The notes under the pieces were generated by a model. That model was given only the letters and a program-made list of their open reading frames with translations, did not search any database and was not told the DNA's origin. A DNA stretch of 64,000 nucleotides from a virus: positions 53,643 to 117,642 of IMG/VR virus record IMGVR_UViG_3300037502_003770. One strand, given 5' to 3'. Of this stretch, positions 8,734 to 58,360 are shown piece by piece. Numbering within the stretch: position 1 is the first letter of the stretch; the number at the start of each line of letters is the position of its first letter. The position numbers and the translations under genes are program-made.

Positions 8734-9088
8734 ATGAATAACATATATATTTCTAATGACTTTTTTATTTATATAGATTATGACTTGGGTTATAATTTAT
8801 TTTTAATAAATTTTAAAGAAACAAATATTTTTAGCGAATATAGTCTTTATTACAAGCGACAACTTATCAAACATAAAACCAAAGATGTTTATTTTTTTTA
8901 ATATTATTGAAATTATTGAAAATATAGATATTTCAGAAAAATTTTTAATTAATATAATAGAATTTTTCTATAGTAATGAATATAGTATTCATCTTGGTAT
9001 TAATAATATTAAATATTTACCTAAAAAATATGTAACCGTTTATGAAAATATTATTAAATATTTCCACTTTAAACCTTTAAGAATTTAA
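8734..9088 (+). pseudogene. FamA gene split by a frameshift in a T8 tract (ORFs 8734..8901 and 8885..9088)
   Basis: ORF1 MNNIYISNDFFIYIDYD... ends in GTTTATTTTTTTTAA. ORF2 starts inside the same T-run in the +1 frame and carries the DUF4116-like INNIKYLPKKYVTVYENIIKYF. Confidence 0.45.
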
Positions 9089-10375
9089 CCTCTTAACTGT
9101 CTCGGTATTACGGATAATACCTCTATCTCCTCATGTAAACAATCGGAGATTGCATTTGAATACTTCTTCATTATATTATAACTACCATTTACATCAGCAT
9201 TTATAACTATCCCTTTTGAAGATTTAAATAATTTTGTTGTAATCCTACTACCCAAATAACTATCTTTCTTACATAAAGACTCATTATCTAAAAAAGAACA
9301 CTTACTTGTATAAGATTCCTCTTGTCTTACAAGTTTGATTCCCTTTTCAAATAACTTGTACTCTAACATAGAAAATAATTTATAATAAGGTATCATTACA
9401 AAATTTTGATTATTTTTCTTTCCATTATTAATGTCTTGTTTCCATTCTTTATTTCTACCTACTACTAAAGTATGATAGTTTTTTGAAACTAAATGATTCA
9501 CTAATAATTTACTTATTTTATGTAAATAATCTTCTATTTTGTTATTTCTTCTTAAATTTAATTTTTCTATCCTTTTAGAAGTATAAACTCCTTTATCTAA
9601 CTTACTTCTAAACTCAGCTAACTTCTTATTATAATATTGATTTATATTCTTTAATGGTTTACCATTTATTATTAAAGGTTGTTTATTATCAGAAAAAGTT
9701 AATGTTAATAAATTATTAACACCTACATCCGCTGAACACACCCTTTCTTTAGAAGATGGTTTAACAAAAAGAGATGTATCTATTTTTTTAGAATAAACAA
9801 CTTCTATTACATAATATCCATATTTAGGAACAATTCTTACTTGTTTAATATTAGTTTTATTCACTATCTTACTTTCTAATAAAATAGAAGTCATACTTAA
9901 CTTAATCAACCCTTTAGAAAGAAATTTCTTATCTTTAGAAATAGCACCTTTTTCATAGGTTGTGATGTATTTTCTATTTTTATCTAAATATTTAGGAATA
10001 TTAACCTTTTCATTATATTTTCCTTTTAATTTAAGTTTTAATAAAGAAAAGAAAGATTTAAAGTTTTTATCTACTAATTTTAAAGTTTGTTTAGATACTT
10101 TATCAGGTAACTCTCTATAATCAAAAGAATCTCTTACTTTATAATAGAGTTGTAAATAAGAAAGATATTTTTTTGTTTCAAAGAAATGTTGTCTTACAAT
10201 AAAGAGGGCATAGTTATAGAGATTTCTACTTTTAGTACAAAGAGTTTCACATTCAGAAAAGAATTTATGATTAGGAGTTATTGTATATTTTTGTACTCTA
10301 TTAACTAACATTTAAAATAAGTATATTTATATATAAATAGTAAAAATAAATTATTTTTATTAACAGAAAGGTGTA
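9075..10375 (-). mobile_element. tnpB-only IS200/IS605-like element (no tnpA)
   Basis: Left end tatataaatagtaaaaataaattat at ~10330-10356 is shared with the three TnpB-like paralog elements. Boundaries approximate. Confidence 0.55.
9085..10311 (-). CDS. tnpB: TnpB (IS200/IS605 OrfB-type RuvC-like nuclease, classic zinc-finger form)
   Basis: 408 aa. RuvC-I SADVGVNN, RuvC-II LVVGRNKEWKQ, YTSKCSFLDNESLC zinc-finger region, RuvC-III DVNGSYNIMKK. N-terminal YNYALFIVRQ is TnpB-like. Confidence 0.85.
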   Translation of the reverse strand: MLVNRVQKYTITPNHKFFSECETLCTKSRNLYNYALFIVRQHFFETKKYLSYLQLYYKVRDSFDYRELPDKVSKQTLKLVDKNFKSFFSLLKLKLKGKYNEKVNIPKYLDKNRKYITTYEKGAISKDKKFLSKGLIKLSMTSILLESKIVNKTNIKQVRIVPKYGYYVIEVVYSKKIDTSLFVKPSSKERVCSADVGVNNLLTLTFSDNKQPLIINGKPLKNINQYYNKKLAEFRSKLDKGVYTSKRIEKLNLRRNNKIEDYLHKISKLLVNHLVSKNYHTLVVGRNKEWKQDINNGKKNNQNFVMIPYYKLFSMLEYKLFEKGIKLVRQEESYTSKCSFLDNESLCKKDSYLGSRITTKLFKSSKGIVINADVNGSYNIMKKYSNAISDCLHEEIEVLSVIPRQLRG

Positions 10376-15214: not shown

Positions 15215-15442
15215 ATGAAGGATGATATTTTTTTACAAATTGATATAAATACTGGTCACACAAAATACTTTGAACGTGACAGTAAATTTAATTTAAAACT
15301 TTCTTTAATTATTATTTATTTTACAGAAGAGACTTTTTTGAATAAAAATGGTTTGTATCTTTTACTTATAATGAAAGATGGTAAAACCATTTTCTTTAAA
15401 GATTTTAGACATCAAAAAATAATTTATTATGTTGGAAATTAG
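15215..15442 (+). CDS. FamA-short protein
   Basis: IFLQIDINTGHTKYFERD motif; tandem position in the array. Confidence 0.35.
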   Translation: MKDDIFLQIDINTGHTKYFERDSKFNLKLSLIIIYFTEETFLNKNGLYLLLIMKDGKTIFFKDFRHQKIIYYVGN

Positions 15443-15623
15443 TATATATTATAATTATACAACTTACAATGAAATTTTTGATATTAGCGTATTGAAATCA
15501 TGTCTTAATATACAGATAAAAGAATATATAGTTTTCCATGAATATATACAATCTTTTTCTAAGTTAATTTCATATTATAATAAAAATCTTCGTAACTTAA
15601 AATATTATGTTAATAAAAATTAA
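15429..15623 (+). CDS. FamA-short-like protein (weak)
   Basis: MLEISIYYNYTTYNE; overlaps its neighbours. Confidence 0.3.
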   Translation: MLEISIYYNYTTYNEIFDISVLKSCLNIQIKEYIVFHEYIQSFSKLISYYNKNLRNLKYYVNKN

Positions 15624-15855
15624 ACTCTCAGAACATTGTTTTTATATTGAGGATTCTTTATACTCAAGACCTTTTACAAGAAGGAACTTTGCTTTTGATT
15701 TAATTTTAAATAATTTTAATGAAATAACATATTTTTTCAATAATAATTTTTATTTAACATGTAATATAAATAAAAATAATATTGAATATTTTGATATTTC
15801 ACTAATGACTGGTATTAAAAATTTTCTTAATTTAACGCATTATATACCAACATAA
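15607..15855 (+). CDS. FamA-short protein
   Basis: MLIKIKLSEHCFYIEDS. Confidence 0.4.
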   Translation: MLIKIKLSEHCFYIEDSLYSRPFTRRNFAFDLILNNFNEITYFFNNNFYLTCNINKNNIEYFDISLMTGIKNFLNLTHYIPT

Positions 15856-16149
15856 ATGTTAGACATTATTTTATATATAGATTGCTTTCAATATATTGAG
15901 GCAACAATAGTGGATATCGGTTCACCAAAAAAAATCTTATTTAGATTAGATTTAAATAATAAAAATAGAATTTTTATTGAAATAAATAGATTTTCTTTAA
16001 AGAAAGGTTATTTTTCATTAATTAACTTTATAAAAGAACGCAAAATTTTATTTAATGATTTAGATTATATAAATATTTTAGATTTAAAATATTATTTTAA
16101 AATATCAAATTCTATCAAAGAGAAAGATTCTCACCTTGCTTTTCTCTGA
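15856..16149 (+). CDS. FamA-short protein whose 3' end runs into the antisense of TnpB-like copy 1
   Basis: MLDIILYIDCFQYIEAT...DLKYYFKISNSIKEKDSHLAFL. The last ~15 codons lie opposite the TnpB-like C-terminal coding region. Confidence 0.4.
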   Translation: MLDIILYIDCFQYIEATIVDIGSPKKILFRLDLNNKNRIFIEINRFSLKKGYFSLINFIKERKILFNDLDYINILDLKYYFKISNSIKEKDSHLAFL

Positions 16150-17495
16150 ATTTAACTGAAAAACTTTATAAGAATGTAAACATTCTTCAATAGAAACTCT
16201 ATATCTCATTTTAGAGTTTTTTATTTTAAGGTAAACTTCCTTCCAATCCTTACAATTAATAAAAGTTTCCTTCCATTGGTCTTTTATTAACAGATTTGGA
16301 TAAAAATTTCCCTTATTTCTTTTAATTATACATTCTATTCCCCTGCGTAAAATTTCTATTGAGGCATTAACAGCATCGCTGTAATCATATTGCAAATTGC
16401 CTATAATAGATGAATACGCAGGATTTATTCTGTATAATTTAATATCTTCAATAAATAACCTTTTTGAAAGATTTTCTATAAAAAGATTTCTTTTCCAAAG
16501 GTTATTATTTTTTCTATTATATTTTCTTCCTTGACCAGCATTTTTACTTTTAAAAGATAAGTCTTCAATAAAAACCGCTTTACAATTATAATACTTTGCA
16601 ACTAAAGAAATCTTCTTAGAGATTTCAATTACTTCATGTTTAATTTTATTCTGAAAGTACTTTGCTTCTTGAGAATCAGTTGATAATTTTAAGGAAATAA
16701 ATTTATCAGTTAGTTCTTTTAAAGAAAACTCTTGGCAATGAATAAGTTTATCATCTTCCATAATAGAAATACCTATATTATTAGGATTCATATCTATCCC
16801 TAAATATCTTTCTTTTGAAGGGAGAAATTTCTTTTCTTGAGATTTAAATTCTTCAAAAGAAATATAAATGTATTTTAAATCAAGTTTTACAGAAAATTTA
16901 TAACCATTCTCAAAACAATCAATATCATTTAATTCCTCAAGTTTAAATAATTCCTTTTTAATATTTCTTCTTAAAGAAGGGAGGTATAAAGGAATATGTA
17001 AATTTCTATTTACTTTAAAAGTGATTTTATTGTTATCAATAATATCTAATTCAAAATAAGTATTTCCTTTATTAGATGTTGTTCCTTGACAAGTAATAGG
17101 TGATAATTTATTTATTTTAAATTCATCATTACTTATCTTACCTTTACATCTTTCATAAAAGTTATTCTTTCCACCAAAAATAACTTTTTGATTTTGAAAT
17201 CTTGTATGAACATCTTTTCCTTCTAAAATAGCGTATTCTATTTGTTTAGAATTAAGCTTTCCAATATTATTTAAACCTTTAAGTAAAGATTTCATTTCTT
17301 TAATATCTGTTATCCCTTCAAAATATCTATTATATGAAAACCTTATTACAGAAGAGAATTGTTTCATTAAAGAATGGATTTCTTTTAATGAATTTACATC
17401 AGTAGTATAAGGCATTTTAATAGTTTTCAAAAGTCTTTAATGTTTATTATAAATAGTAAAAATAAATTATTTAGTATATAATTTTATAACGAATT
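16085..17495 (-). mobile_element. tnpB-like-only IS element, copy 1
   Basis: Shared 3' flank TAAAATATCAAAT just past the stop; shared left end tgtttattataaatagtaaaaataaatta at 17441-17470. Confidence 0.55.
16105..17430 (-). CDS. TnpB-like RuvC nuclease paralog 1 (no zinc-finger insertion in RuvC-III)
   Basis: RuvC-I GIDMNPNNIG, RuvC-II AVFIEDLSF, RuvC-III INPAYSSIIGNLQYDYSDAVNASIEI. No CxxC between PAYSS and DAxNA. Called start is TTG; the ATG 5 codons in gives MPYTT. Confidence 0.75.
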   Translation of the reverse strand: MKTIKMPYTTDVNSLKEIHSLMKQFSSVIRFSYNRYFEGITDIKEMKSLLKGLNNIGKLNSKQIEYAILEGKDVHTRFQNQKVIFGGKNNFYERCKGKISNDEFKINKLSPITCQGTTSNKGNTYFELDIIDNNKITFKVNRNLHIPLYLPSLRRNIKKELFKLEELNDIDCFENGYKFSVKLDLKYIYISFEEFKSQEKKFLPSKERYLGIDMNPNNIGISIMEDDKLIHCQEFSLKELTDKFISLKLSTDSQEAKYFQNKIKHEVIEISKKISLVAKYYNCKAVFIEDLSFKSKNAGQGRKYNRKNNNLWKRNLFIENLSKRLFIEDIKLYRINPAYSSIIGNLQYDYSDAVNASIEILRRGIECIIKRNKGNFYPNLLIKDQWKETFINCKDWKEVYLKIKNSKMRYRVSIEECLHSYKVFQLNSEKSKVRIFLFDRI

Positions 17496-17534
17496 TAATA
17501 TATAAATGTATTTATAAAATAAACTTTTCAAAAA

Positions 17535-18930: not shown

Positions 18931-19280
18931 TACAAATATTTAATGAAAACTTCTTTTATTTAGAAGGTGGTTTACAAGATAATGTATATGATAGAATACT
19001 AAGTTGTTTTATCTACTTTAATTCTTTCATTCACGATTATTTTATTAGTAAATTTGATAAAAATAAAGTAGAACTAAATTTATATCATTTTGAGATATAT
19101 AATAAGATAGAACTAAATAGAAGTTATAAAAAAATTCCTTATGAAATAACATTTACTTTAAATAAATTTTTTGTAAAAAAAGCTTCTTTTTCTTTAGTAA
19201 CAAATATTTACAAATATGCAATATCTTGTGGAAATATTAAGAAAACTAACTTACCAAAGAAATTTCAAAATTTATGTTAA
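18927..19280 (+). CDS. FamA protein (FFYLEGG subtype)
   Basis: MIQIFNENFFYLEGGLQ; near-identical to 18565 at the 5' end; ATGA overlap. Confidence 0.55.
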   Translation: MIQIFNENFFYLEGGLQDNVYDRILSCFIYFNSFIHDYFISKFDKNKVELNLYHFEIYNKIELNRSYKKIPYEITFTLNKFFVKKASFSLVTNIYKYAISCGNIKKTNLPKKFQNLC

Positions 19281-19480
19281 TAAAAATAGAATTTTCAAAC
19301 AACAATAATTATTTTGAAACGGAAGTAGGAAGGTTTTATTTTCATTTTACTATAACCTTTTATTATGAATGTGTTCATATTCTTGAAAGTACATTAAATT
19401 ATATTTATATTAAATATAATAATGAATATTTATATAAAAATTTTCAAAATATTAATAAACTTAATTTAAAATATTATTAG
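19274..19480 (+). CDS. FamA-short protein (C-terminal NLKYY)
   Basis: MLIKIEFSNNNNYFETE...NINKLNLKYY. Confidence 0.45.
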   Translation: MLIKIEFSNNNNYFETEVGRFYFHFTITFYYECVHILESTLNYIYIKYNNEYLYKNFQNINKLNLKYY

Positions 19481-19485
19481 TAATT

Positions 19486-19710
19486 ATGTATACTTATATT
19501 ATAATAATAGAATTATCAAACGATATTAATTATTATGAAAGAGAGCAATTTGCGAGTTTTTATTTTCATTTTGTAATATCTTGTATTTATTATGAATGTA
19601 TGCGCTTTAATGAGAGTTTAATATTAATTTATATTGAACATAACGATAAAGATTTATATAATTATTATAAAAATATTAACAAACTTAATTTAAAATATTA
19701 CTTGTTTTAA
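19486..19710 (+). CDS. FamA-short protein
   Basis: ...IIELSNDINYYERE...NINKLNLKYYLF; paralog of 19274. Confidence 0.45.
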   Translation: MYTYIIIIELSNDINYYEREQFASFYFHFVISCIYYECMRFNESLILIYIEHNDKDLYNYYKNINKLNLKYYLF

Positions 19711-19728: not shown

Positions 19729-20520
19729 ATGATTACTTACAAAAAAGAAGAACTTATTTTATCAGTAAATGACCTTTCTGTAAAGTATGGTGATAAACAA
19801 ATATTAAAAGATATTTCTTTTGATATTCATAATATTACAAGACCAAATCTTACTCAAGGACAAATCATATCTATTTGTGGTAGAAGTGGTTGTGGTAAAA
19901 CATCTTTATTTAAAACTATATCAGGTTTTTTAAAACCAACAACAGGAACTATAAAAATAGGTGTTGAACAAAAAGATGTAATTATGGGTGAGGTTGGTGT
20001 TATTCAACAAGATTATCCTTTATTTAATCATAGAACTGTTTATGAAAATCTTTCTCTTAGTTTAAAAAACGTTAAGACAGATAACGAAAAGAAAGAAAAA
20101 ATACATCATTATTGCGATTTATTTAATCTTTTGGAACATTTAAATAAATACCCTTCACAACTATCAGGTGGTCAAAGACAAAGAGTATCTATATTACAAC
20201 AGGTATTAACTGAAAATAAGTTTATTCTTATGGATGAACCATTTTCAGGATTAGATGTTTTAATGAAAGATAAAGTTATTGAACTTATGTTAAAGGTTTC
20301 AAATCTTGATGAAATGAATACTTTAATAATAGTTTCTCATGATATTGAATCATCTTGCGCTATTTCTGATACTGTACATATTTTAGCAAATAAAGATAAT
20401 ACAGGCTCTACAGTTGTTAAATCATATGACTTTCTAAAAGAAAATCTTGCTTATAGAAAAGATATTAAAGATGATTATAATTTCAAAAGAATTATTAATG
20501 AAATAAAAAGTTTAATCTAA
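19729..20520 (+). CDS. ABC transporter ATP-binding protein (SsuB/TauB-like)
   Basis: Walker A GRSGCGKTSL, signature LSGGQRQRVSI, Walker B ILMDEPFSGLD, H-loop IVSHD. Confidence 0.9.
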   Translation: MITYKKEELILSVNDLSVKYGDKQILKDISFDIHNITRPNLTQGQIISICGRSGCGKTSLFKTISGFLKPTTGTIKIGVEQKDVIMGEVGVIQQDYPLFNHRTVYENLSLSLKNVKTDNEKKEKIHHYCDLFNLLEHLNKYPSQLSGGQRQRVSILQQVLTENKFILMDEPFSGLDVLMKDKVIELMLKVSNLDEMNTLIIVSHDIESSCAISDTVHILANKDNTGSTVVKSYDFLKENLAYRKDIKDDYNFKRIINEIKSLI

Positions 20521-20717
20521 TGCAGATACTTATTTATTTAGAAAGGCATTCAAAATATTTTGAATATTATTATGATAATTCTTTTGAAGAAAGTTTAGTA
20601 TTTGAAATTAGAACATCTTTTTCGTTTGAATTTGTTAAAAATTTTATAATAGAAATATGGGAAAAAAATAATGATTCTTGGTATTATTATAATAAATTAA
20701 AATATTACGTATGTTAA
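20520..20717 (+). CDS. FamA-short protein
   Basis: MQILIYLERHSKYFEYYY...NKLKYYVC; TAATG overlap with the ATPase stop. Confidence 0.4.
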   Translation: MQILIYLERHSKYFEYYYDNSFEESLVFEIRTSFSFEFVKNFIIEIWEKNNDSWYYYNKLKYYVC

Positions 20718-20911
20718 ATATAGGTATTATTATTTTAAATAATGATTTTCGTTATTATGAATATTTTATTGGTATATTTGTTTTTGAAATTGATAATTTT
20801 GTTTTTTCTGAAACTTTTGAAATTGGTTATCATATTAGACTAGAAAGTTTAAGAAAAAACGGTAAGCGTTATTTTATTGCAAATGTTTTTAATTTAAAAT
20901 ATTACTTATGA
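20711..20911 (+). CDS. FamA-short protein
   Basis: ...ILNNDFRYYEYF...NVFNLKYYL. Confidence 0.45.
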   Translation: MLNIGIIILNNDFRYYEYFIGIFVFEIDNFVFSETFEIGYHIRLESLRKNGKRYFIANVFNLKYYL

Positions 20912-21108
20912 TAAGAATAAATTTTAATAATGGTCTTTATGAAGAATGGTTACATAATTGTAATATATATACTTTTGTTACTTTAGTGTATTATTTTGAA
21001 TGTGTAAGCTTTTTAAATTCAAGTTTTCAAATTAATGAATTAAAATTTAAAGGGAATTATTTTTATTATAAAAATATTAATCTTCTTAATTTAAAATATT
21101 ACTTATGA
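20908..21108 (+). CDS. FamA-short protein
   Basis: MIRINFNNGLYEEW...NINLLNLKYYL; ATGA overlap. Confidence 0.45.
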   Translation: MIRINFNNGLYEEWLHNCNIYTFVTLVYYFECVSFLNSSFQINELKFKGNYFYYKNINLLNLKYYL

Positions 21109-21323
21109 TTCATATTTTTTCTCTTAATAAAAACATTTTTTATTCAGAAAAATTTATATTTAATGCTGATGTATTTCTTGTTCGTTTAAATATTAATAAT
21201 TATGTTGAAAGTATTATGTTTGATTATAATTTTATTCTATTAGAAATGGAATATTCGATGTTTATAGAAATTAATAAACTTCTTAAATTAAAATATTATT
21301 TAAGTTATTACTTATGGCTGTAA
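21105..21323 (+). CDS. FamA-short protein
   Basis: MIHIFSLNKNIFYSEKF...INKLLKLKYYL; ATGA overlap. Confidence 0.45.
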   Translation: MIHIFSLNKNIFYSEKFIFNADVFLVRLNINNYVESIMFDYNFILLEMEYSMFIEINKLLKLKYYLSYYLWL

Positions 21324-21523
21324 ATATATATTTAACAAATTCTTCTTATAGGGAAAGACAACATGAATATTATATTAGTAATATATTTCATAATGAAAAT
21401 ACTATTTTCAGTTCGATATATTCTTTACAATTAGCATCTTTAATAAAAAATAAAATCTTTTATTATTCAATAGTACAAAAATATAATACTGTTTTAAAAT
21501 TAAAATATTATTTATGGGAATAA
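21314..21523 (+). CDS. FamA-short protein (divergent N-terminus)
   Basis: ...NTVLKLKYYLWE. Confidence 0.4.
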   Translation: MAVNIYLTNSSYRERQHEYYISNIFHNENTIFSSIYSLQLASLIKNKIFYYSIVQKYNTVLKLKYYLWE

Positions 21524-21744
21524 AAATTTGTTTTAACAATACTACATGGAATTTTTATATTGAATTTTTTTCTTATAAAGAGTGTATTTTCACTATTAAA
21601 ATTTTATCTAATTTAATAACATCTACATTAATTGGAAATAAATTACAAGATGTTGTTTTAAAAATAAAAAATAATACACTATTAACAACTGATTCCATTA
21701 AAAACGTTACCACTAATGTTCTTAATTTAAAATTTTATATATGA
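21514..21744 (+). CDS. FamA-short protein (divergent)
   Basis: ...NVLNLKFYI. Confidence 0.4.
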   Translation: MGIKICFNNTTWNFYIEFFSYKECIFTIKILSNLITSTLIGNKLQDVVLKIKNNTLLTTDSIKNVTTNVLNLKFYI

Positions 21745-21956
21745 TAATAAGTATTAAAATTTCTAATAATAATTTTTCTTATGACGAAAATATTTCCAGT
21801 ATTTATGATAATACTATAATAACTAACTTATGGATTTTTAAATGTTTTGAAGATAGAATTTTTATTAACACAATAAATCAAATAATAGAAATGATTTACT
21901 ATATTACAATTAATAATTTCACAGTATACAGTAATAATAAATATTATAAAACTTAA
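21741..21956 (+). CDS. FamA-short protein (divergent, no KYY tail)
   Basis: MIISIKISNNNFSYDEN...; ATGA overlap. Confidence 0.35.
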   Translation: MIISIKISNNNFSYDENISSIYDNTIITNLWIFKCFEDRIFINTINQIIEMIYYITINNFTVYSNNKYYKT

Positions 21957-21965
21957 AGAACTAAA

Positions 21966-22193
21966 ATGAGAATAAATATTAAAATAAAAACATATTTCTT
22001 TAAATATGAAGAATTTAATTTAGTAGATGAAAATATGATAACTCATCTAGACCTTTCAAATATCTTTTATTTTGAAAGAAGTTATTTTTCTTTAAATGTA
22101 GATAATTATAAAATATATGCAATTTATAAAAATAGATTTCTTTATTTTGAAAATCGTGATGTTAATTTACTTAAATTAAAATATTATCTATGA
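21966..22193 (+). CDS. FamA-short protein
   Basis: MRINIKIKTYFFKYEEFNL...VNLLKLKYYL. Confidence 0.45.
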   Translation: MRINIKIKTYFFKYEEFNLVDENMITHLDLSNIFYFERSYFSLNVDNYKIYAIYKNRFLYFENRDVNLLKLKYYL

Positions 22194-22402
22194 GATTACA
22201 AATTGTTTTTAATTTTGGAGGTTATTATAGTGAACTTGATAAATATGTAATTGTTTACATTTATCCAAAATATTATGATATTTATTTTAATGATGTATTT
22301 TATTATATTGATTCAAATATAAAATTAATAGAAGTAAGGCATTTAAACAGCAAAAAATATTCTCGTGAATATAAAGATTTCATTTTAAAATACTATACAT
22401 AA
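22190..22402 (+). CDS. FamA-short protein
   Basis: MRLQIVFNFGGYYSELD...FILKYYT; ATGA overlap. Confidence 0.4.
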   Translation: MRLQIVFNFGGYYSELDKYVIVYIYPKYYDIYFNDVFYYIDSNIKLIEVRHLNSKKYSREYKDFILKYYT

Positions 22403-22612
22403 TGAAGATAGAAATTAAATCAACATATTTTACGTATTATGAAAGACTTGGTTATGATGTTCAAAATTATTTTTCTTTAAATTTAGATTGGATTTTTTTT
22501 AGAAGATATAGATTTATATAAAAATGAATTTATTATGAATTTTGTAGGTTTTGGTCAAAAATGTTTTTATTCAAAAAATAGTAATTTACTTAAATTAAAA
22601 TATTATATATAA
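22402..22612 (+). pseudogene. FamA-short gene frameshifted at a T9 homopolymer
   Basis: Frame a: MKIEIKSTYFTYYERLGYDVQNYFSLNLDWIFF... Frame b after GATTTTTTTTTAG: ...FFLEDIDLYKNEFIMNFVGFGQKCFYSKNSNLLKLKYYI ending at 22610-22612. Confidence 0.45.
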
Positions 22613-24000
22613 AATATTAAATTCTTTCAAAGACAAAAGTTTTCACCTTGCTTTTCTCTGAACTTAACTGAAAAACTTTATAAGAATGCAAACATTCTTC
22701 AATAGAAACTCTATATTTCAATTTAGAGTTTTTTATTTTAAGAGAAATTTCTTTCCAATCTGTACATTTAATAAAAGTTTCCTTCCAACGGTCTTTTATT
22801 AACAAATTGGGATAAAAATTTCCCTTATTTCTTTTAATTATACATTCAATTCCTCTGCGTACAATTTCTATTGAGGCATTAATAGCATCAGTATAATCAT
22901 GTTGCAAATTGCCTATAATAGACGAATACGCAGGATTAATTCTGTATAATTTAATATCTTCTATGAATAACCTTTTACTTAAATTTTCAAAAAACAGATT
23001 CCTTTTCCAAAGGTCATTATTTTTTCTGTTATATGTTTTTCCCTTACCAGCGTCTTTTTGTTTAAATGATAAATCTTCAATAAAAACTGCTTTACACTTA
23101 TAATATTTTGCAAGTAATGAAATCTTTTTTGAAATTTCAATTACTTCATGTTTAATTTTATTCTGAAAGTACTTTGCTTTTTCAGAATCAGTAGATAGTT
23201 TTAAAGAAATAAATTTATCAGTTAATTCCTTTAAAGAAAACTCTTGACAATGAATAATTTTATCATCTTCCATTATAGATATACCTATATTATTGGGATT
23301 CATATCTATTCCTAGATACCTTTCTTTTGAAGGAAATTTCTTTTCTTCATATTTAAATTCTTCAAAAGATATATAAATATATTTTAAGTCAAGTTTTACA
23401 CAAAATTTATATCCTTTCTCACCAAACTTTATATCATTTAATTCTTGAAGTTTAAATAATTCTTTTTTAATATTCTTTCTTAAAGAAGGAAGGTATAAAG
23501 GTATATGCACATATTTATTTACTTTAAATATAATTTGATTATTATCAATTATATCTAAATTAAAATAAGAATTTCCTTTATTATTAGTTATTCCTTGACA
23601 CGTAATAGGTGAAAGTTTATTTATTTTAAATTCATCTTTACTTATTTTAGCTTTACACCTTTCATAAAAATTATTCTTTCCTCCGAAAATAACCTTTTCA
23701 TTTTGAAATCTTGTATAAACATCTTTTCCTTCTAAAATAGCATACTCTATTAGTTTAGAATTAAGTTTATTTATATTATTTAAATTAGAAAGTAAAAATT
23801 TTATTTTCTTAATATCAGATATCCCTTCAAAATATCTATTATAGGAGTACCTTACTACAGAGGAGAATTGTTTCATCAAAGAATGAATTTCTTTTAATGA
23901 AGTATCATCTGTAGTGTAAGGCATTTTAATAGTTTTCAAAAGTCTTTAATGTTTATTATAAATAGTAAAAATAAATATAATTTTTTTAACAAATCATTTT
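22598..24000 (-). mobile_element. tnpB-like-only IS element, copy 2, immediately 5' of tRNA-Met
   Basis: Shared 3' flank TAAAATATTAAAT; shared left end at 23951-23980. Confidence 0.55.
22617..23939 (-). CDS. TnpB-like RuvC nuclease paralog 2 (no zinc-finger insertion)
   Basis: 440 aa, near-identical to copies 1 and 3; GIDMNPNNIG, AVFIEDLSF, INPAYSSIIGNLQHDYTDAINASIEI. Confidence 0.75.
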   Translation of the reverse strand: MKTIKMPYTTDDTSLKEIHSLMKQFSSVVRYSYNRYFEGISDIKKIKFLLSNLNNINKLNSKLIEYAILEGKDVYTRFQNEKVIFGGKNNFYERCKAKISKDEFKINKLSPITCQGITNNKGNSYFNLDIIDNNQIIFKVNKYVHIPLYLPSLRKNIKKELFKLQELNDIKFGEKGYKFCVKLDLKYIYISFEEFKYEEKKFPSKERYLGIDMNPNNIGISIMEDDKIIHCQEFSLKELTDKFISLKLSTDSEKAKYFQNKIKHEVIEISKKISLLAKYYKCKAVFIEDLSFKQKDAGKGKTYNRKNNDLWKRNLFFENLSKRLFIEDIKLYRINPAYSSIIGNLQHDYTDAINASIEIVRRGIECIIKRNKGNFYPNLLIKDRWKETFIKCTDWKEISLKIKNSKLKYRVSIEECLHSYKVFQLSSEKSKVKTFVFERI

Positions 24001-24029: not shown

Positions 24030-24103
24030 GGACCTATAGCGCAACTGGTCAGAGCAGCTGACTCATAATCAGCAGGTTTCAGGTTCAAATCCTGATAGGT
24101 CCA
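24030..24103 (+). tRNA. tRNA-Met (anticodon CAT; could also be initiator or tRNA-Ile2 type)
   Basis: Acceptor ggaccta/taggtcc; anticodon stem gctga/tcagc with loop ctCATaa; T-arm tcagg-ttcaaat-cctga; D-loop with GG; no encoded CCA. Confidence 0.8.
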
Positions 24104-24121
24104 CTTTAAAATTTTATAAAA

Positions 24122-27721: not shown

Positions 27722-28351
27722 ATGGTAAACAATTTTAAACAAGTTAAAAACATATTATCTTTTGAAGATAAAAATGATTTCTATTTAGTAGAAATTATTA
27801 AAAGAAAGAAAGATAATTCTCATGATTCTTCTTTTAAAAAGAATGAAAAACATATAAAAAGGTTTTATATTAATAATTTAGAAGATTTTGATGAGAAACA
27901 AAACTCAATAATAGAAACTTGTATTAGAAATAATGCAAGGGCGTATATCAAACTTAATAAACGCAATCATAAACATATAGCAAAAGTTATGAATGTAAAA
28001 CTCGCTGAAATTTTACTTCATGATAATAACGATGAATATAAAAGACTCGAAACTTTATATTCAAAAGTAACAGGAAAATATTTTGTAAATAATGATAAAA
28101 AGTTTATTATAGATTTAGATGAAAAAGACCTTCATTTAAAAGAAGAAATACTTACATATTTAAAAACTCATAATGACTTTAAATTTTCTTTACATAAAGA
28201 GGATTTAGTAATAGATACATTCCCATCAAATACTGGTCTTCATATTGTTACTAAAAAATTTAATTTAAATATATTTAAAAAGAAATATCCAAATATCGAT
28301 GTACATTCTGATAATATGGTCTTACTTTTCTTTAATAATCAACCTTTATAA
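27722..28351 (+). CDS. hypothetical protein
   Basis: 209-aa ORF; no domain. Confidence 0.45.
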   Translation: MVNNFKQVKNILSFEDKNDFYLVEIIKRKKDNSHDSSFKKNEKHIKRFYINNLEDFDEKQNSIIETCIRNNARAYIKLNKRNHKHIAKVMNVKLAEILLHDNNDEYKRLETLYSKVTGKYFVNNDKKFIIDLDEKDLHLKEEILTYLKTHNDFKFSLHKEDLVIDTFPSNTGLHIVTKKFNLNIFKKKYPNIDVHSDNMVLLFFNNQPL

Positions 28352-28355
28352 GAGA

Positions 28356-28426
28356 TAATTTTTTAACAAAAAAGAATCTTTCTTGTAATATAAATCAATT
28401 CAATGTTCAACTAAACAAAAAAAACA
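28356..28426 (+). promoter_or_regulatory. degenerate TPC cassette copy (leader type 1)
   Basis: ttttttaacaaaaaagaatctttcttgtaatataaatcaa...ctaaacaaaaaaaacaATG. Confidence 0.4.
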
Positions 28427-31019: not shown

Positions 31020-31523
31020 ATGAAACATAACATACAACAAGAAAAATTTTCTTTATTTATTGAAAAAAATTTCATAATAGAATATGAAAAAAATACCACA
31101 TCATATAGAATAGATGTTTATAATGATGTAAAAAAATATGATAAATATCTTATTGACAAATATATTAAAACGGATGATACTTTTCGAGTACTAAACTTAT
31201 TTCAAAATTTAAAATTAGAATATTATAATGGTTTATTATCATTAAATTTTGAAAGAAAAGAACATATTTATATAAATTATAGTTCTCTTGAATATGGTAC
31301 TCAACATAATAAAGAAAAATTCCTAAACGAAGTAATTAAATATTTACCGCAAACAGATTTAACTAAAAAAATAGATTTTTCTAAAAGAAATATTTTTGGT
31401 AGTACAAATCATGTATTTATTAAAGACATACCTTTTTTTAATGAAAAATTTATTCCATTAAATGTAGAACCTTATGTAAAAAATGCTATTACTAATAATA
31501 ATTTTTTAATAAATTATATATAG
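31020..31523 (+). CDS. hypothetical protein
   Basis: 167-aa ORF. Confidence 0.45.
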   Translation: MKHNIQQEKFSLFIEKNFIIEYEKNTTSYRIDVYNDVKKYDKYLIDKYIKTDDTFRVLNLFQNLKLEYYNGLLSLNFERKEHIYINYSSLEYGTQHNKEKFLNEVIKYLPQTDLTKKIDFSKRNIFGSTNHVFIKDIPFFNEKFIPLNVEPYVKNAITNNNFLINYI

Positions 31524-31542
31524 TAAGGATATTATTCACCGT

Positions 31543-31619
31543 TTTAACAAAAAACATTATTTCTTGTAGTATAAATCAGTTCAAACAAAACAACAATTAA
31601 ACAAAAACAATTTTCTCTT
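31543..31619 (+). promoter_or_regulatory. degenerate TPC cassette copy (leader type 1)
   Basis: ttttaacaaaaaacattatttcttgtagtataaatcagttcaaacaaaacaa... Confidence 0.4.
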
Positions 31620-32809: not shown

Positions 32810-33293
32810 TACAGAACATTGTTTTTATCAAGAAATTAATTATTATTTAGAATATAATATTAAACCAATTTTTATTTTAATAAATAAGTTTTTTTCTGAG
32901 GAATGGTTTCTTCCTTTAATTGGTATAACTTATTTTTATAATAATTTATTTCATAATAAAACAGTTAAATCTTTAAGAAAAACTCATCTTTATGAATATA
33001 TATTATTAAGTTTTTTACGTATTAGGATGAAACTTGATAAATTAAATAAAACCACAATAAAACAAAGTGTTGATAATTTTATTCATCATACACATATAAC
33101 ATATTATACAGAAAATATTTGTAAAGAATTAATAAAATATTATGGTATTGAAATTATTAAATTTTTACCAAATAAATTCTTTACTAAAAAACTGTATATT
33201 TTTATGTATGATTTATTAGGCAATGAATTGCTTTCTTTACATAAAATATCAAATTCTTTCAAAGACAAAGGTTTTCACCTTGCTTTTCCTTGA
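32793..33293 (+). CDS. FamA protein whose 3' end runs into the antisense of TnpB-like copy 3
   Basis: ORF track 32739..33293; motif MNININTEHCFYQEIN from ATG 32793; tail ...KISNSFKDKGFHLAFP lies opposite the TnpB-like C-terminus. Confidence 0.4.
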   Translation: MNININTEHCFYQEINYYLEYNIKPIFILINKFFSEEWFLPLIGITYFYNNLFHNKTVKSLRKTHLYEYILLSFLRIRMKLDKLNKTTIKQSVDNFIHHTHITYYTENICKELIKYYGIEIIKFLPNKFFTKKLYIFMYDLLGNELLSLHKISNSFKDKGFHLAFP

Positions 33294-34640
33294 ATTTAAC
33301 TCAAAAACTTTATAAGAATGTAAACATTCCTCAATAGAAACTCTATATTTCAATCCAGAGTTTTTTATTTTAAGGGAAACTTCCTTCCAATCCTTACATT
33401 TAATAAAAGTTTCCTTCCAACGGTCTTTTATTAATAGATTTGGATAAAAATTTCCCTTATTTCTTTTAATTATACATTGAATTCCTCTGCGTACAATTTC
33501 TATCGAGGCATTAACAGTATCAGTATAATCATGTTGCAAATTGCCTATGATAGATGAATACGCAGGATTTATTCTGTATAATTTAATATCTTCAATAAAT
33601 AATCTCTTTGAAAGGTTCTCTACAAACAAATTTCTTTTCCAAAGGTTATTATTTTTCCTGTTATATGTTGTTCCTTTACCAGCATTTTTATCTTTAAAAG
33701 ATAAATCTTCAATAAAAACAGCTTTACAATTATAATATTTTGCAATCAAAGAAATCTTTTTTGAAATTTCGATTGTTTCAAATTGTATTTTATTTTGAAA
33801 GTACTTTGCTTTATCAGAAGAAGAATCTAATTTTAAAGAAATAAATTTATCTATTAACTCTTTTAAAGAAAATTCTTGACAATAAATAAGTTTATCATCT
33901 TCCATAATAGAAATACCTATATTATTAGGATTCATATCTATTCCTAGATATCTTTCTTTTGAAGGGAGAAATTTCTTTTCTTCATTTTTAAATTCTTCAA
34001 AAGAAATATAAATATATTTTAAATCAAGTTTAATAGAAAATTTATAACCTTTTTCAAAATTAGGTTTTACATCATTTAATTCTTGAAGTTTATACAAATC
34101 TTTTTTAATATTTTTCCTTAAAGAAGGTAAATATAAAGGTATATGTAATTTTTTATTTACTTTAAAAATGATTTGATTATTATCAATTATATCTAATTCA
34201 AAATAAGAATTTCCTCTATTATTGGTAACACCTTGACACGTAATAGGTGAAAGTTTATTTATTTTAAATTCATCTTTACTTATATTTCCTTTACATCTTT
34301 CATAAAAATTATTCTTTCCACCAAAAATAACCTTTTGATTTTTAAATCTTGTGTGAACATCTTTTCCTTCTAAAATAGCGTATTCTATTAATTTAGAATT
34401 TAAATCTTGAATATTATTTAAACCTTTAAGTAAAGACTTTATTTTTTTAATATCAGTTATTCCTTCAAAATACCTATTATAAGAAAACCTTACTACAGAA
34501 GAGAATTGTTTCATTAAAGAATGAATTTCTTTTAATGAATTTACATCAGTTGTATAAGGCATTTTAATAGTTTTCAAAAGTATTTAATGTTTATTATAAA
34601 TAGTAAAAATAAATTATTCTTTTAACAAATAGAAGTCTTT
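33232..34640 (-). mobile_element. tnpB-like-only IS element, copy 3
   Basis: Shared 3' flank TAAAATATCAAAT; shared left end at 34589-34618, then ttttaacaaatagaagtcttttctgtattata which matches the 3' half of the TPC hairpin. Confidence 0.55.
33249..34577 (-). CDS. TnpB-like RuvC nuclease paralog 3 (no zinc-finger insertion)
   Basis: 442 aa; GIDMNPNNIG, AVFIEDLSF, INPAYSSIIGNLQHDYTDTVNASIEI. Confidence 0.75.
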   Translation of the reverse strand: MKTIKMPYTTDVNSLKEIHSLMKQFSSVVRFSYNRYFEGITDIKKIKSLLKGLNNIQDLNSKLIEYAILEGKDVHTRFKNQKVIFGGKNNFYERCKGNISKDEFKINKLSPITCQGVTNNRGNSYFELDIIDNNQIIFKVNKKLHIPLYLPSLRKNIKKDLYKLQELNDVKPNFEKGYKFSIKLDLKYIYISFEEFKNEEKKFLPSKERYLGIDMNPNNIGISIMEDDKLIYCQEFSLKELIDKFISLKLDSSSDKAKYFQNKIQFETIEISKKISLIAKYYNCKAVFIEDLSFKDKNAGKGTTYNRKNNNLWKRNLFVENLSKRLFIEDIKLYRINPAYSSIIGNLQHDYTDTVNASIEIVRRGIQCIIKRNKGNFYPNLLIKDRWKETFIKCKDWKEVSLKIKNSGLKYRVSIEECLHSYKVFELNSRKSKVKTFVFERI

Positions 34641-44393: not shown

Positions 44394-44468
44394 AAAGAAT
44401 TTTTAACAAAATATATTTCTTTTAGTATTATAACCACAATTAATGTTCAACTTAAATTTCTAATAAAA

Positions 44469-45247: not shown

Positions 45248-45320
45248 AAAGGGAATTTTTTTAAGACTTCTTTTTTAACAGAAAGAAGTCTTTTTTGTAT
45301 TATAATTAAACCTTTAAAAA
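45248..45320 (+). promoter_or_regulatory. TPC cassette (terminator hairpin + promoter-like block)
   Basis: aagacttcttt-tttaacag-aaagaagtctt perfect 11-bp stem at 45263-45292, then a T-run and ttgtattataat. Confidence 0.6.
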
Positions 45321-58309: not shown

Positions 58310-58360
58310 CTAAAAAGATATATTTCTGTAATATAAATCAAACTAAACAAAAACGGCAAT
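58302..58360 (+). promoter_or_regulatory. TPC cassette, partial (leader type 1)
   Basis: ttaactaaaaagatatatttctgtaatataaatcaaactaaacaaaaacggcaatATG. Confidence 0.45.

What the first reader, a model, noticed from the sequence alone, without database searches (positions are those of the whole stretch)
16108..16225. Conserved hairpins in the 3' end of the TnpB-like genes; a derived guide would read into the FamA KYYL motif
All three TnpB-like copies keep two hairpins just inside the 3' coding region. The first is agaatg-taaa-cattct at 16171-16186 (copy 2 agaatg-caaa-cattct, copy 3 weakened). The second is aaactcta-N9-tagagttt at 16194-16219, retained in copies 2 and 3 with loop changes. Inter-copy similarity ends about 15 nt past the stop codon, at TAAAATAT(C/T)AAAT. 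TnpB omega-RNA scaffolds are made from exactly this region, and the guide is the flanking DNA beyond the right end. Here that flank is the reverse complement of the FamA-short C-terminal coding sequence (AATTTAAAATATTA, encoding NLKYY), which is present in more than 15 copies nearby. The element would then be guided to the FamA arrays.
Basis: inference. Interest (0 to 1): 0.6.

Follow-up and report, generated by a model that had tools for sequence, protein, structure and literature searches.

The report
Guide-RNA-like fold inside phage TnpB-like genes
The last ~215 bases of three TnpB-like nuclease genes in this probable huge-phage genome carry an evolutionarily conserved RNA fold that ends at the edge of the mobile element, as a TnpB guide-RNA scaffold would, but the idea that it steers the element to one neighbouring gene family is weakly supported.

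Summary
They are part of a larger conserved fold of four well-supported helices plus a weaker outer one. The fold spans about 215 nt on the sense strand and ends 7 nt past the stop codon, at the element's right end (TATTTTA).

Across 21 homologous viral loci, 84.9% of cells pair (shuffles 73.5±0.8). 22 of 38 pairs show compensatory changes, and slid controls fall to 31-50%. Held-out loci and ISCaje4 of Campylobacter phage CP220 keep the helices with new arm sequences. Synonymous variation drops in the last ~70 codons (p 2e-6).

The protein has a Cas12f/TnpB fold and an invariant D-E-D triad, but no zinc finger. Complete relatives carry an IS607-type serine recombinase. The window copies have lost it.

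An embedded omega-RNA-like scaffold is therefore well supported by inference, though not shown experimentally.

The claim that the element is guided to FamA arrays is weak. Copies 1 and 2 abut FamA C-terminal codons (flanks 14/16 identical). Copy 3 and six other insertion sites in close relatives do not. Short-homology recombination between FamA ends explains the pattern more simply.

Verdict: a new member of a known kind, of moderate interest.

The parts
16105..17430 (-). Copy 1 of the TnpB-like gene (441 aa from TTG; an ATG lies 5 codons in)
   Evidence: ORF list. Copies are 86% identical in protein. Cas12f/TnpB fold. D213/E289/D352 are invariant.
16098..16312 (-). Copy 1: conserved structured region (putative omega-RNA scaffold), about 215 nt, ending at the right end of the element
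   Evidence: Fold z -2.84 on the sense strand. Covariation on alignment A5. Low synonymous variation.
16256..16290 (-). Helix H0. Arms UUAAUAAAAG (16281-16290) and CUUUUAUUAA (16256-16265) enclose the conserved loop ACCAAUGGAAGGAAA (16266-16280).
   Evidence: All 7 core pairs show double changes. Cognate arms pair at -6.3 kcal/mol against -2.5 for foreign arms. Held-out loci carry new compensatory variants. Coordinates.
16194..16219 (-).
   Evidence: 95% of cells pair. The Ser/Leu codon covaries with the synonymous Arg codon: TCT/AGA, TTG/CGA, TCG/CGA, TCTG/CAGG, TCCGG/CCGGG. The helix is kept in ISCaje4.
16171..16186 (-). It is longer in relatives (up to 13 bp).
   Evidence: Arm sequences and the encoded peptide differ between clades, but a hairpin remains. 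Cognate arms pair at -9.4 kcal/mol against -4.2 for foreign arms, and 9 of 13 pairs show double changes. ISCaje4 has a new 10-bp stem.
16105..16155 (-). Closing helix H3: UUAAAUUC (16148-16155) pairs with GAAUUUGA (16105-16112, including the stop codon). An inner window-clade stem pairs AGAGAAA (16141-16147) with UUUCUCU (16119-16125).
   Evidence: 91.9% of cells pair in aligned sequences. Other clades use CAAAAUUCAA/UUGAAUUUUG, UAAAUCAU/AUGAUUUA or AAAUCAUA/UAUGAUUU. This is weaker than H0-H2.
16230..16312 (-). Outer helix around H0, with arms at about 16292-16312 and 16230-16250. It pairs the F-Y-P codons with the D-W-K-E codons.
   Evidence: Modest support: 78.8% of cells pair against 75.4±1.1 in shuffles (2/500), and slid controls give 38-64%.
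16098..16104 (-). Right-end terminal heptamer UAUUUUA. All copies and relatives end here, and the flanks differ beyond it.
16078..16097 (-). Flank of copy 1 (AAAUAAUAUUUUAAAUCUAA), the guide if the element works like TnpB. It is antisense to FamA ...(L)DLKYY(F).
   Evidence: The first 16 nt match six other FamA ends with at most 1 mismatch. Its role as a guide is inferred, not shown.
17431..17523 (-). Left-end region of copy 1. It holds a remnant of the tnpA HTH tail (ATTTATTTTTACTATTTATAA) and an upstream stretch shared with relative P0005. The exact left boundary is not resolved.
22617..23939 (-). Copy 2 of the TnpB-like gene (440 aa)
22610..22824 (-). Copy 2 structured region. H0 is at 22768-22802, H1 at 22706-22731, H2 at 22683-22698 and H3 at 22617-22667. 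The right end is at 22610-22616.
22590..22609 (-). Flank of copy 2 (UAUAUAAUAUUUUAAUUUAA), antisense to FamA ...LKLKYYI. The FamA stop codon TAA is supplied by the element end.
   Evidence: It is 14/16 identical to the copy 1 flank.
33249..34577 (-). Copy 3 of the TnpB-like gene (442 aa). It is orthologous to P0002 in a related phage, which has the same flanks.
33242..33456 (-). Copy 3 structured region. H0 is at 33400-33434, H1 at 33338-33363, H2 at 33315-33330 (with a G.U first pair) and H3 at 33249-33299. The right end is at 33242-33248. The flank 33222-33241 is not a FamA end.
15856..16149 (+). Last FamA-type gene of the 15.2-16.1 kb array. Its reading frame now runs from ...LDLKYY into the antisense of the element end (FKISNSIKEKDSHLAFL).
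22535..22612 (+). C-terminal fragment of the last FamA-type gene of the 20.5-22.6 kb array (...NLLKLKYYI*)

Best explanation
The three copies are tnpA-less derivatives of an IS607-type insertion sequence of phages, related to ISCaje4. Its TnpB-like RuvC nuclease gene carries its own guide-RNA (omega-RNA-like) scaffold in the last ~215 nt.

The scaffold consists of an outer helix, H0 with a conserved loop, H1, H2, and a closing helix H3 that includes the stop codon. It ends at UAUUUUA, 7 nt past the stop. The transcript would continue into the adjacent flank, giving each copy its own roughly 16-20 nt guide. The nuclease-RNA complex would then cut matching DNA, such as an element-free allele in a co-infecting genome, and recombinational repair would copy the element in.

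Shown here:
- the structure and its covariation;
- suppressed synonymous change over the region;
- the exact right-end boundary;
- the Cas12f/TnpB fold with an invariant D-E-D triad;
- IS607-type TnpA in complete relatives.

Inferred from knowledge of TnpB:
- that the RNA is made, processed and bound;
- that the flank acts as a guide;
- that cleavage depends on a target-adjacent motif.

For copies 1 and 2 the would-be guide is antisense to the FamA ...LKYY codons. I regard this as a consequence of where those two copies sit, at the last gene of two FamA arrays, and not as a family-wide targeting rule.
For: Structure:
- RNAalifold finds H0 and H1 unaided.
- On alignment A5, 84.9% of cells pair against 73.5±0.8 in shuffles. 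22 of 38 pairs show double changes against 13.4±2.0. The covariation score is 0.326 against at most 0.113 for slid partners. All comparisons gave 0/500.
- Cognate arms pair better than foreign arms for every helix.
- Ten held-out loci keep H0 and H1 with new compensatory variants.
- ISCaje4, at 38% protein identity, keeps H1 and has a different 10-bp H2.
- The sense strand is 13.6 kcal/mol more stable than the antisense strand, and a mid-gene control is unstructured.
- Synonymous differences are 0.23 in the last 70 codons against 0.35 elsewhere, p 2e-6.

Boundary: all copies and relatives end at TATTTTA, and the flanks are unrelated beyond it.

Protein:
- The AlphaFold model has pLDDT 80.6.
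- The top Foldseek hits are Cas12f, ISFba1 and ISDra2 TnpB, Cas12k and Fanzor2, with E 7e-10 to 1e-5.
- D213, E289 and D352 are invariant in 117 sequences.

Element type:
- L004, L019, L043 and L041 have an HTH+Resolvase TnpA overlapping the gene start.
- CP220 annotates the homolog as ISCaje4 TnpB with a resolvase-like TnpA (PMC2853527).

TnpB paradigm: guide RNA from the right end (PMC8612924 abstract), and homing by cleavage of vacant sites (PMC10690162 abstract).
Against: - There is no expression, processing or binding data.
- No Rfam family matches.
- Curated TnpB sequence models do not reach threshold, and profiles find no solved TnpB by sequence.
- The zinc-finger/TNB domain is absent.
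- Foldseek TM-scores are low (about 0.3), although E-values are good.
- H3 and the outer helix have limited covariation.
- In the one case where a clean empty allele is available (P0009 against window 31513-31640), the current right flank of the element does not sit next to the left-flank motif in the empty allele. A simple model of TnpA insertion followed by TnpB homing predicts that it should.
- The structure was derived from the same sequences on which it was first scored. This is only partly offset by the held-out loci.
Confidence: 0.6

Rival explanations
1. The conserved fold is a cis-acting mRNA element, for example for transcript stability or for autoregulation by the protein binding its own message. 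It does not deliver a guide.
For: Every part of the fold except 7 nt lies inside the coding sequence. No evidence of processing or of a guide is available. The family lacks the TNB zinc finger that other TnpB and Cas12 proteins have.
Against: The fold ends precisely at the element boundary in every clade, even though the 3' UTR length varies from 7 to about 50 nt. The catalytic triad is invariant. The whole-protein architecture matches RNA-guided nucleases. TnpB is known to process its own mRNA into omega-RNA (PMC10278001 abstract), so a coding location is not an argument against a guide role.
Confidence: 0.2
2. The hairpins are DNA-level signals of the right end that the transposase recognises, as in the subterminal hairpins of IS200/IS605.
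For: The element is an insertion sequence, and the hairpins lie within about 120 nt of the right end. The antisense strand also folds better than shuffles, z -2.42.
Against: The associated transposase is a serine recombinase of IS607 type. That type acts on double-stranded ends, not on single-strand hairpins (PMC6188088 and PMC4058570 abstracts). Many pairs are G.U on the sense strand, which become A-C mismatches on the other strand (UG 12, GU 8 and others). The helices stay under selection in tnpA-less copies.
Confidence: 0.07
3. The hairpins are by-products of conserved codons in an AT-rich gene and have no function.
For: H1 overlaps the most conserved peptide (KN.K.KYRVS), and the three window copies are 86% identical.
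Against: Compensatory double changes occur in 22 of 38 pairs, including covariation between a Ser/Leu codon and the synonymous choice of an Arg codon. The H2 peptide and sequence vary while the hairpin persists. Synonymous sites are specifically constrained.
Confidence: 0.03
4. On the FamA adjacency: copies 1 and 2 lie at FamA ends for two reasons. The element lands or is tolerated at the ends of gene blocks next to terminator-like modules. It also moved between two FamA array ends by short-homology recombination or copy choice, using the FamA ...LKYY sequence on the right and a TTGTTAAAA-type motif on the left. RNA guidance is not needed.
For: - Both copies sit at the last gene of their arrays.
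- Only 2 of 9 independent sites in the close clade are FamA.
- TTGTTAAAA (TTCGTTATAAAA in copy 1) sits next to the left end in copies 2 and 3 and in P0009, P0006 and P0005. It is also present in the empty alleles.
- P0008 joins at a 7-nt microhomology with a truncated left end and carries 72 extra nt after the right end.
- P0009 and P0004 are flanked by direct duplications of about 75 and 230 bp, which IS607 transposition does not make (PMC6188088 abstract).
Against: The right junction is exact in all copies. The copy 1 and copy 2 flanks are more alike (14/16) than any of 316 between-genome pairs (maximum 11). A guide-induced break at a FamA end would stimulate exactly this kind of recombination, so the two accounts are not exclusive.
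Confidence: 0.55

Closest known systems
TnpB with its omega-RNA (reRNA) of IS200/IS605 elements, e.g. ISDra2 (PMC8612924; structures 8exa, 8bf8)
   Same: A small RuvC nuclease with the Cas12f/TnpB fold. A structured RNA overlaps the 3' end of its own gene and ends at the right end of the element. The flank beyond the right end would serve as the guide. Many copies lack a transposase.
   Different: - There is no detectable sequence similarity to solved TnpBs.
- There is no zinc-finger/TNB insertion.
- The partner transposase is a serine recombinase, not a Y1 enzyme.
- The scaffold lies almost wholly inside the coding sequence, with only 7 nt beyond the stop in the window clade.
- RNA production and cleavage are untested.
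IS607-family elements (serine-recombinase TnpA plus TnpB), including IStron-type elements of Clostridia (PMC10690162) and Fanzor2 of giant viruses (9b0l)
   Same: Complete relatives have an HTH-first serine recombinase immediately upstream of, and overlapping, the TnpB-like gene. Fanzor2 is among the structural hits. The habitat is viral.
   Different: The window copies retain only about 20 nt of tnpA. No group I intron is present. Junctions in close relatives show long flanking duplications or microhomology, which are not IS607 hallmarks.
ISCaje4 of Campylobacter phage CP220 (ISfinder name; Timms et al. 2010, PMC2853527)
   Same: A homologous TnpB (38% identity over 78% of the query) with a truncated resolvase-like TnpA. 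H1 is identical in sequence and H2 is present with different arms. It lies in a large virulent phage.
   Different: The protein is longer (465 aa) and 51 nt follow the stop. H0 is poorly formed. The 2010 paper does not mention an RNA, and I found no later description.
Zinc-finger-less TnpB branches in the TnpB/Cas12 classification of Altae-Tran et al. 2023 (PMC10691335), e.g. RIIIr-4
   Same: The C4 zinc finger between RuvC-II and RuvC-III is lost. These branches are well represented in viruses.
   Different: RIIIr-4 is defined by Asp-to-His at RuvC-III and a link to RHH/MazE proteins. Here Asp352 is invariant and the partner is a serine recombinase, so I could not assign the family to that branch.
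Free-standing homing endonuclease genes of large phages
   Same: Selfish nuclease genes lie between phage genes and are present or absent between close relatives. Junctions are consistent with recombinational copying.
   Different: Recognition would be by RNA, not protein. The element descends from a transposon.

Membership tests
TnpB (OMEGA RNA-guided nuclease) | RuvC (RNase H-like) nuclease domain with a D-E-D catalytic triad | tested here: met
   GIDMN, FIEDL and DAVNASIEI motifs are present. D213, E289 and D352 are invariant in 117 sequences. RuvC resolvases and Cas12/TnpB are among the fold hits.
TnpB (OMEGA RNA-guided nuclease) | Overall WED/REC + RuvC architecture like TnpB and Cas12f | tested here: met
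   The model has pLDDT 80.6. Foldseek against PDB gives Cas12f, ISFba1 TnpB, ISDra2 TnpB, Cas12k and Fanzor2 with E 7e-10 to 1e-5 over about 390-480 columns, but TM is only about 0.3. The precomputed Pfam hit is PF27229 SSO2105_N.
TnpB (OMEGA RNA-guided nuclease) | Match to curated sequence models (Pfam OrfB_IS605 / Cas12f1-like_TNB; NCBIfam guided_TnpB) | tested here: not met
   There is no Pfam-A hit. TIGR01766 gives E 1.3e-3 and 19 bits against a cut-off of 32. The canonical TnpB at 9085-10311 passes all of these models.
TnpB (OMEGA RNA-guided nuclease) | C4 zinc finger (TNB) between RuvC-II and RuvC-III | tested here: not met
   Only about 15 residues (NPAYSSIIGNLQYDYSD) lie there, with no Cys pairs, in all 117 sequences. 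Loss of the finger is known in some TnpB branches (PMC10691335).
TnpB (OMEGA RNA-guided nuclease) | Structured RNA encoded at the 3' end of the gene and right end, ending at the element boundary | tested here: met
   A conserved multi-helix fold with covariation, constrained synonymous sites and an exact boundary. This shows selection on structure, not that the RNA is produced.
TnpB (OMEGA RNA-guided nuclease) | Guide taken from the flank, with cleavage dependent on a target-adjacent motif | not testable with these tools
   Only indirect data are available. Flanks differ between copies, as expected. The candidate left-flank motif TTGTTAAAA cannot be told apart from part of the left end or a microhomology.
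IS607 family insertion sequence | Serine-recombinase TnpA with an N-terminal HTH followed by the catalytic domain, upstream of tnpB | tested here: met
   Met in relatives. L004 has a 198-aa TnpA with Resolvase PF00239 at E 8e-22, residues 54-188, after an HTH. L019, L043 and L041 are full length, and other loci carry remnants. Not met in the window itself: tblastn finds no tnpA.
IS607 family insertion sequence | No target-site duplication, and defined ends shared by all copies | tested here: inconclusive
   The right end is exact in all copies. The left junction varies. Direct duplications of 75 bp and about 230 bp flank P0009 and P0004, and P0008 has a truncated left end plus 72 extra nt.
ISCaje4-like elements (ISfinder) | Homology of TnpB to ISCaje4 TnpB | tested here: met
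   tblastn gives 38% identity over residues 83-425, E 8e-41. The feature is annotated 'ISCaje4 transposase TnpB'. This is far below the identity ISfinder uses for the same IS, so it is a relative and not the same element.
RIIIr-4 clade of TnpB (Altae-Tran 2023) | RuvC-III catalytic Asp replaced by His, with no zinc finger | tested here: not met
   The zinc finger is absent, but Asp352 is invariant. The definition comes from PMC10691335.
Any Rfam RNA family | Score at or above the gathering threshold | tested here: not met
   Only tRNA-Met at 24030-24103 was found in the window.

The most novel reading that the evidence does not exclude
In tnpA-less copies living in huge phages, the guide taken from the right flank matches a motif shared by a whole tandem gene family (FamA ...LKYY). 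One element's RNA-nuclease complex would then cut several paralogous gene ends and spread from array to array by break-induced, short-homology recombination. That would be an RNA-guided selfish element whose target is a multi-copy family rather than a single vacant site.

Supporting observations are thin:
- 2 of 3 copies lie at FamA ends, with 14/16 identical flanks.
- The 16-nt flank of copy 1 matches six other FamA ends with at most 1 mismatch.
- One uninterrupted array end, at 19688-19703, has TTAAAA one base upstream of such a match.
Probability: 0.12. Interest if true: 0.7.

Novelty: new member of a known kind. Interest (0 to 1): 0.38.

Why it matters
If the inference holds, a large family carries a compact guide-RNA scaffold written almost entirely into its own coding sequence. 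The family has more than 1000 proteins and is almost exclusively viral. It occurs in Lak megaphages, other huge phages and Campylobacter phages. Its nuclease is zinc-finger-less and about 435 aa long. It would then be a candidate miniature RNA-guided nuclease from phages, and a clear case of dual coding in which codon choice covaries to keep RNA helices. The irregular junctions in close relatives also offer material for studying how transposase-less TnpB elements persist and move in virulent phage genomes. It does not change the known picture of TnpB biology.

Tried and rejected
- Sequence searches against solved structures with the single protein and with a 117-sequence profile found nothing relevant. 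hhalign against the window's canonical TnpB was not significant.
- Literature searches for SSO2105 and for phage TnpB families found no description of this family's RNA.
- The metagenome scan with the FamA protein next to copy 1 found no relative. The exact right-end pattern found nothing in metagenome or viral contigs. I therefore could not recover empty alleles for copies 1-3.
- The source-contig protein P0001 is not on record for a context look-up.
- nhmmer with the 3'-end alignment found no stand-alone scaffold copies in the window beyond the three genes.
- I first read the 12/16 similarity of the L034 and L041 right flanks as a second case of similar guides. I rejected this because a third copy on another contig (L038) shares the same 16 nt, so they belong to the element.
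- I looked for direct duplications flanking copies 1-3 like those in P0004 and P0009 and found none.
- I considered TTCG/TTTG next to the left end as a target-adjacent motif. I dropped it because the left boundary is not fixed: P0005 shares about 50 more nt with copy 1, and TTGTTAAAA is also in the empty alleles.
- The 9-mer AAATATTAT alone is only mildly enriched in the window: 31 matches against 19.9±4.3.
Full report
CONTEXT

The window is 21% G+C and nearly all its genes are on the + strand. It holds one tRNA-Met and a few recognisable genes: an OmpA-domain protein, an AAA ATPase and an RNA ligase. The exact protein of copy 1 is on record from a 312,694-bp JGI contig.

Homologs lie in the 462-kb and 636-kb 'uncultured phage' records LR756500.1 and LR756504.1. 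They also lie in Prevotella Lak megaphages (540-550 kb, up to five places per genome) and in Campylobacter phages. A scan of one genome per prokaryotic species found only two hits, both in a single Omnitrophota MAG. IMG/VR gave 40 loci, and the protein search gave more than 1000 relatives. The source is therefore most likely a huge phage, and the family is essentially viral.

THE OBSERVATION

Three minus-strand genes are 86% identical in protein: 16105-17430, 22617-23939 and 33249-34577. The loop of the second is 10 nt, not 9. Both are kept in copies 2 and 3. The 'weakened' pair in copy 3 is a G.U pair on the sense strand.

DNA similarity between the copies starts about 40-60 nt upstream of the start codon. 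It ends at TATTTTA, 7 nt after the stop.

The right flanks of copies 1 and 2 are the reverse complements of FamA C-terminal codons (...DLKYY and ...LKLKYYI). In copy 2 the FamA stop codon is supplied by the element. In copy 1 the FamA frame reads on into the element. The flank of copy 3 is the end of an unrelated ORF. About 13-15 FamA-type ORFs lie at 15.2-16.1, 19.3-19.7 and 20.5-22.6 kb.

WHAT THE PROTEIN IS

Curated TnpB models do not reach threshold. Sequence searches of the PDB find nothing.

An AlphaFold model built on 117 homologs has pLDDT 80.6. Its best matches are Cas12f, ISFba1 and ISDra2 TnpB, Cas12k and mimivirus Fanzor2, with E 7e-10 to 1e-5. The RuvC motifs GIDMN, FIEDL and DAVNASIEI are present, and D213, E289 and D352 are invariant.

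The zinc finger normally found between RuvC-II and RuvC-III is absent. Zinc-finger-less TnpB branches have been described, some enriched in viruses (PMC10691335). The named branch RIIIr-4 has His in place of the RuvC-III Asp, which is not the case here.

A canonical TnpB that passes all the models sits separately at 9085-10311.

WHAT THE ELEMENT IS

In relatives L004, L019, L043 and L041 the gene is preceded and overlapped by a 198-aa protein. This protein has an N-terminal HTH followed by a Resolvase domain (PF00239, E 8e-22), which is the domain order of IS607-type serine transposases (PMC4058570 abstract). Other relatives keep only N- or C-terminal remnants of it.

The window copies keep about 20 nt that correspond to the end of the HTH segment (ATTTATTTTTACTATTTATAA, compare ...IYFYWL). 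The window holds no tnpA.

In Campylobacter phage CP220 the homolog is annotated as ISCaje4 TnpB, next to a truncated resolvase-like gene. The element was named in 2010 (PMC2853527). The kind of element is therefore known.

THE RNA-LEVEL SIGNAL

I anchored 21 sequences (three window copies and 18 viral loci, 31-57% protein identity) at the element end and aligned the last 240 nt.

It also recovers a new helix, H0, which encloses a conserved loop ACCAAUGGAAGGAAA. Single-sequence folds repeat the same layout in every clade:
- an outer helix;
- H0;
- H1;
- a closing helix H3, which pairs the V-F-Q-x-N-S codons with the last bases of the ORF or 3' UTR just before UAUUUUA.

Scoring H0-H3 on the alignment gave the following:

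| Measure | Observed | 500 shuffles | Slid partners |
|---|---|---|---|
| Cells paired | 84.9% | 73.5±0.8 | 31-50% |
| Pairs with changes on both sides | 22 of 38 | 13.4±2.0 | not compared |
| Covariation score | 0.326 | 0.155 | at most 0.113 |

No shuffle reached the observed value for any measure (0/500).

The outer helix has only modest support. Cognate 5' and 3' arms pair far better than arms exchanged between sequences: H0 -6.3 against -2.5, H2 -9.4 against -4.2 kcal/mol.

H1 is the clearest case. The Ser/Leu codon in K-N-[S/L]-K covaries with the synonymous codon chosen for Arg in Y-R-V. The observed pairings are TCT/AGA, TTG/CGA, TCG/CGA, TCTG/CAGG and TCCGG/CCGGG.

The structure was derived from these same sequences, so I checked ten held-out loci. 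H0 and H1 are kept with further new variants, for example TCATTAA/TTAGTGA, GAGTTAA/TTGGTTC and AAACCTTA/TAGGGTTT. ISCaje4 keeps H1 and has a different 10-bp H2.

Many pairs are G.U on the sense strand. The sense strand of copy 1 folds at -48.3 kcal/mol (z -2.84) against -34.7 for the antisense strand. A mid-gene stretch of equal length has z -0.34.

Among residues that stay identical, codons differ in 23% of sequence pairs over the last 70 codons, against 35% elsewhere (p 2e-6). The fold is therefore selected, acts on the sense strand, and ends at the element boundary.

HOW IT MOST LIKELY WORKS

Three features are the signature of a TnpB omega-RNA: a TnpB-fold nuclease with an intact active site, a conserved RNA fold overlapping the 3' end of its own gene, and a fold that stops exactly at the right end. 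In known TnpB systems the RNA comes from the right end and the guide is the adjacent flank (PMC8612924). TnpB processes its own mRNA into that RNA (PMC10278001). The complex cuts vacant sites so that recombination restores the element (PMC10690162; abstracts).

I take this as the best explanation (confidence about 0.6). The RNA's existence, its binding, the guide and any target-adjacent motif are inferred and untested.

THE FamA CLAIM

Points in its favour:
- Copies 1 and 2 both end 2-3 nt after the KYY codons.
- Their 16-nt flanks are 14/16 identical, above all 316 between-genome flank pairs (maximum 11).
- The flank of copy 1 matches six other FamA ends with at most one mismatch.

Points against it as a rule:
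- Copy 3 (and its ortholog P0002) and the sites of P0004, P0005, P0006, P0008, P0009 and a second copy in L049 have unrelated flanks.
- Both FamA sites are at the last gene of an array. FamA ends inside arrays are followed immediately by the next start codon.
- A second apparent case of similar flanks (L034/L041) turned out to be part of the element.

Two insertions present in relatives are absent from the window, which gives filled-versus-empty comparisons.
- At window 31513-31640 the P0009 element is flanked on both sides by the same ~75-bp intergenic module.
- At window 44378-44409 the P0008 element joins through a 7-nt microhomology with a truncated left end, and it carries 72 extra nt after its right end.

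P0004 is flanked by a direct duplication of about 230 bp of a T5orf172 gene.

The motif TTGTTAAAA lies next to the left end in five sites. It is also present in the empty alleles, where it is the loop of a repeated terminator-like module.

These junctions are not those of IS607 transposition, which makes no duplications (PMC6188088 abstract). They point to short-homology or copy-choice recombination. Movement between two FamA array ends would then use FamA homology on one side and the TTGTTAAAA-type motif on the other. That is the simpler account of the adjacency. A guide-induced break could still be what triggers it, and I put that at about 0.12.

VERDICT

The omega-RNA reading is supported by strong comparative evidence but not demonstrated. 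The FamA-targeting reading is weak. The element belongs to a known kind (an IS607-type TnpB element, ISCaje4-like) whose RNA had not, as far as I could find, been described.

Noticed in passing
window 9085-10311 (-) and 10323-10369: A canonical TnpB (Pfam OrfB_IS605 + Cas12f1-like_TNB; NCBIfam guided_TnpB, E 2e-48) lies 6 kb from copy 1. The ~45 nt upstream of its start (GTTAATAAAAATAATTTATTTTTACTATTTATA) are about 90% identical to the left-end region of the zinc-finger-less copies. Two very different TnpB types therefore share one upstream module.
   Followed up: partly
window 31513-31640 versus L047 2330-2520 and 3780-3920: This is the element-free allele of the site occupied by P0009 in a related phage. 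The filled site has the same ~75-bp intergenic module on both sides of the element (about 95% identical). This direct duplication is far longer than any transposase-made target duplication.
   Followed up: partly
window 44378-44409 versus L048 880-1000 and 2290-2440: This is the element-free allele of the site occupied by P0008. The left junction lies in a 7-nt microhomology (ATTTTTA) inside the usual left end. 72 nt of unknown origin, including a (TA)n run, follow the right end before the target resumes at TAACAAAA.
   Followed up: partly
L046 2151-2396 and 3816-4044: The P0004 copy is flanked by two direct copies, about 90% identical, of part of a T5orf172/GIY-YIG-like gene. The left copy is an intact gene. 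The right copy is a frameshifted fragment that ends at the element's right end.
   Followed up: partly
window 45260-45320, 55835-55915, 54575-54650, 58270-58375, 28350-28415, 31513-31600: A repeated intergenic module is present. It consists of a hairpin (e.g. AAGACTTCTTT-TTTAACAG-AAAGAAGTCTT), then a T run, then TGTATTATAAT-like sequence, so it looks like a terminator followed by a promoter. Its loop (TTTTAAC, i.e. GTTAAAA on the other strand) is where the left ends of several elements sit.
   Followed up: partly
window 24030-24104 (+): The single tRNA gene of the window (tRNA-Met, CAT) lies about 40 nt from the left end of copy 2.
   Followed up: no
window 15215-16100, 19274-19710, 20520-22612 (+): Three tandem arrays of 64-97-aa FamA-type ORFs end in ...(N)LKYY(L). 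Stop and start codons often overlap (ATGA). There is no Pfam match for the member tested, and the function is unknown.
   Followed up: partly
window 45.3-47.9 kb, 51.7-54.6 kb, 56.6-58.7 kb (+): Further runs of back-to-back 80-130-aa ORFs are present, possibly other tandem small-gene families.
   Followed up: no
L013/L014 (stop at codon 303) and L028-L031 (stop at codon 160): Several full-length homologs have a single in-frame stop codon, yet tblastn similarity continues beyond it. The cause may be stop-codon reassignment in those phages or pseudogenes.
   Followed up: no
window 16105-16149 (+), 33249-33293 (+); L049 3767-3811: Convergent neighbouring ORFs regularly read through into the antisense of the element's last ~45 nt. 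This gives them the same artificial tail (...ISNSFKDKGFHLAF[LP]*). Gene callers will therefore report false C-termini for the flanking genes.
   Followed up: yes
window 16085-16091 and 22596-22602 (-): The FamA ...LKYY codons contain a second copy of the right-end heptamer TATTTTA, 13-14 nt beyond the true end. The target therefore resembles the element end.
   Followed up: no
alignment A5 columns 71-85 (copy 1: 16266-16280): The H0 loop ACCAAUGGAAGGAAA is almost invariant at synonymous positions. Lys is AAG in nearly all sequences, although the genomes are very AT-rich. This suggests the loop is a sequence-specific contact.
   Followed up: partly
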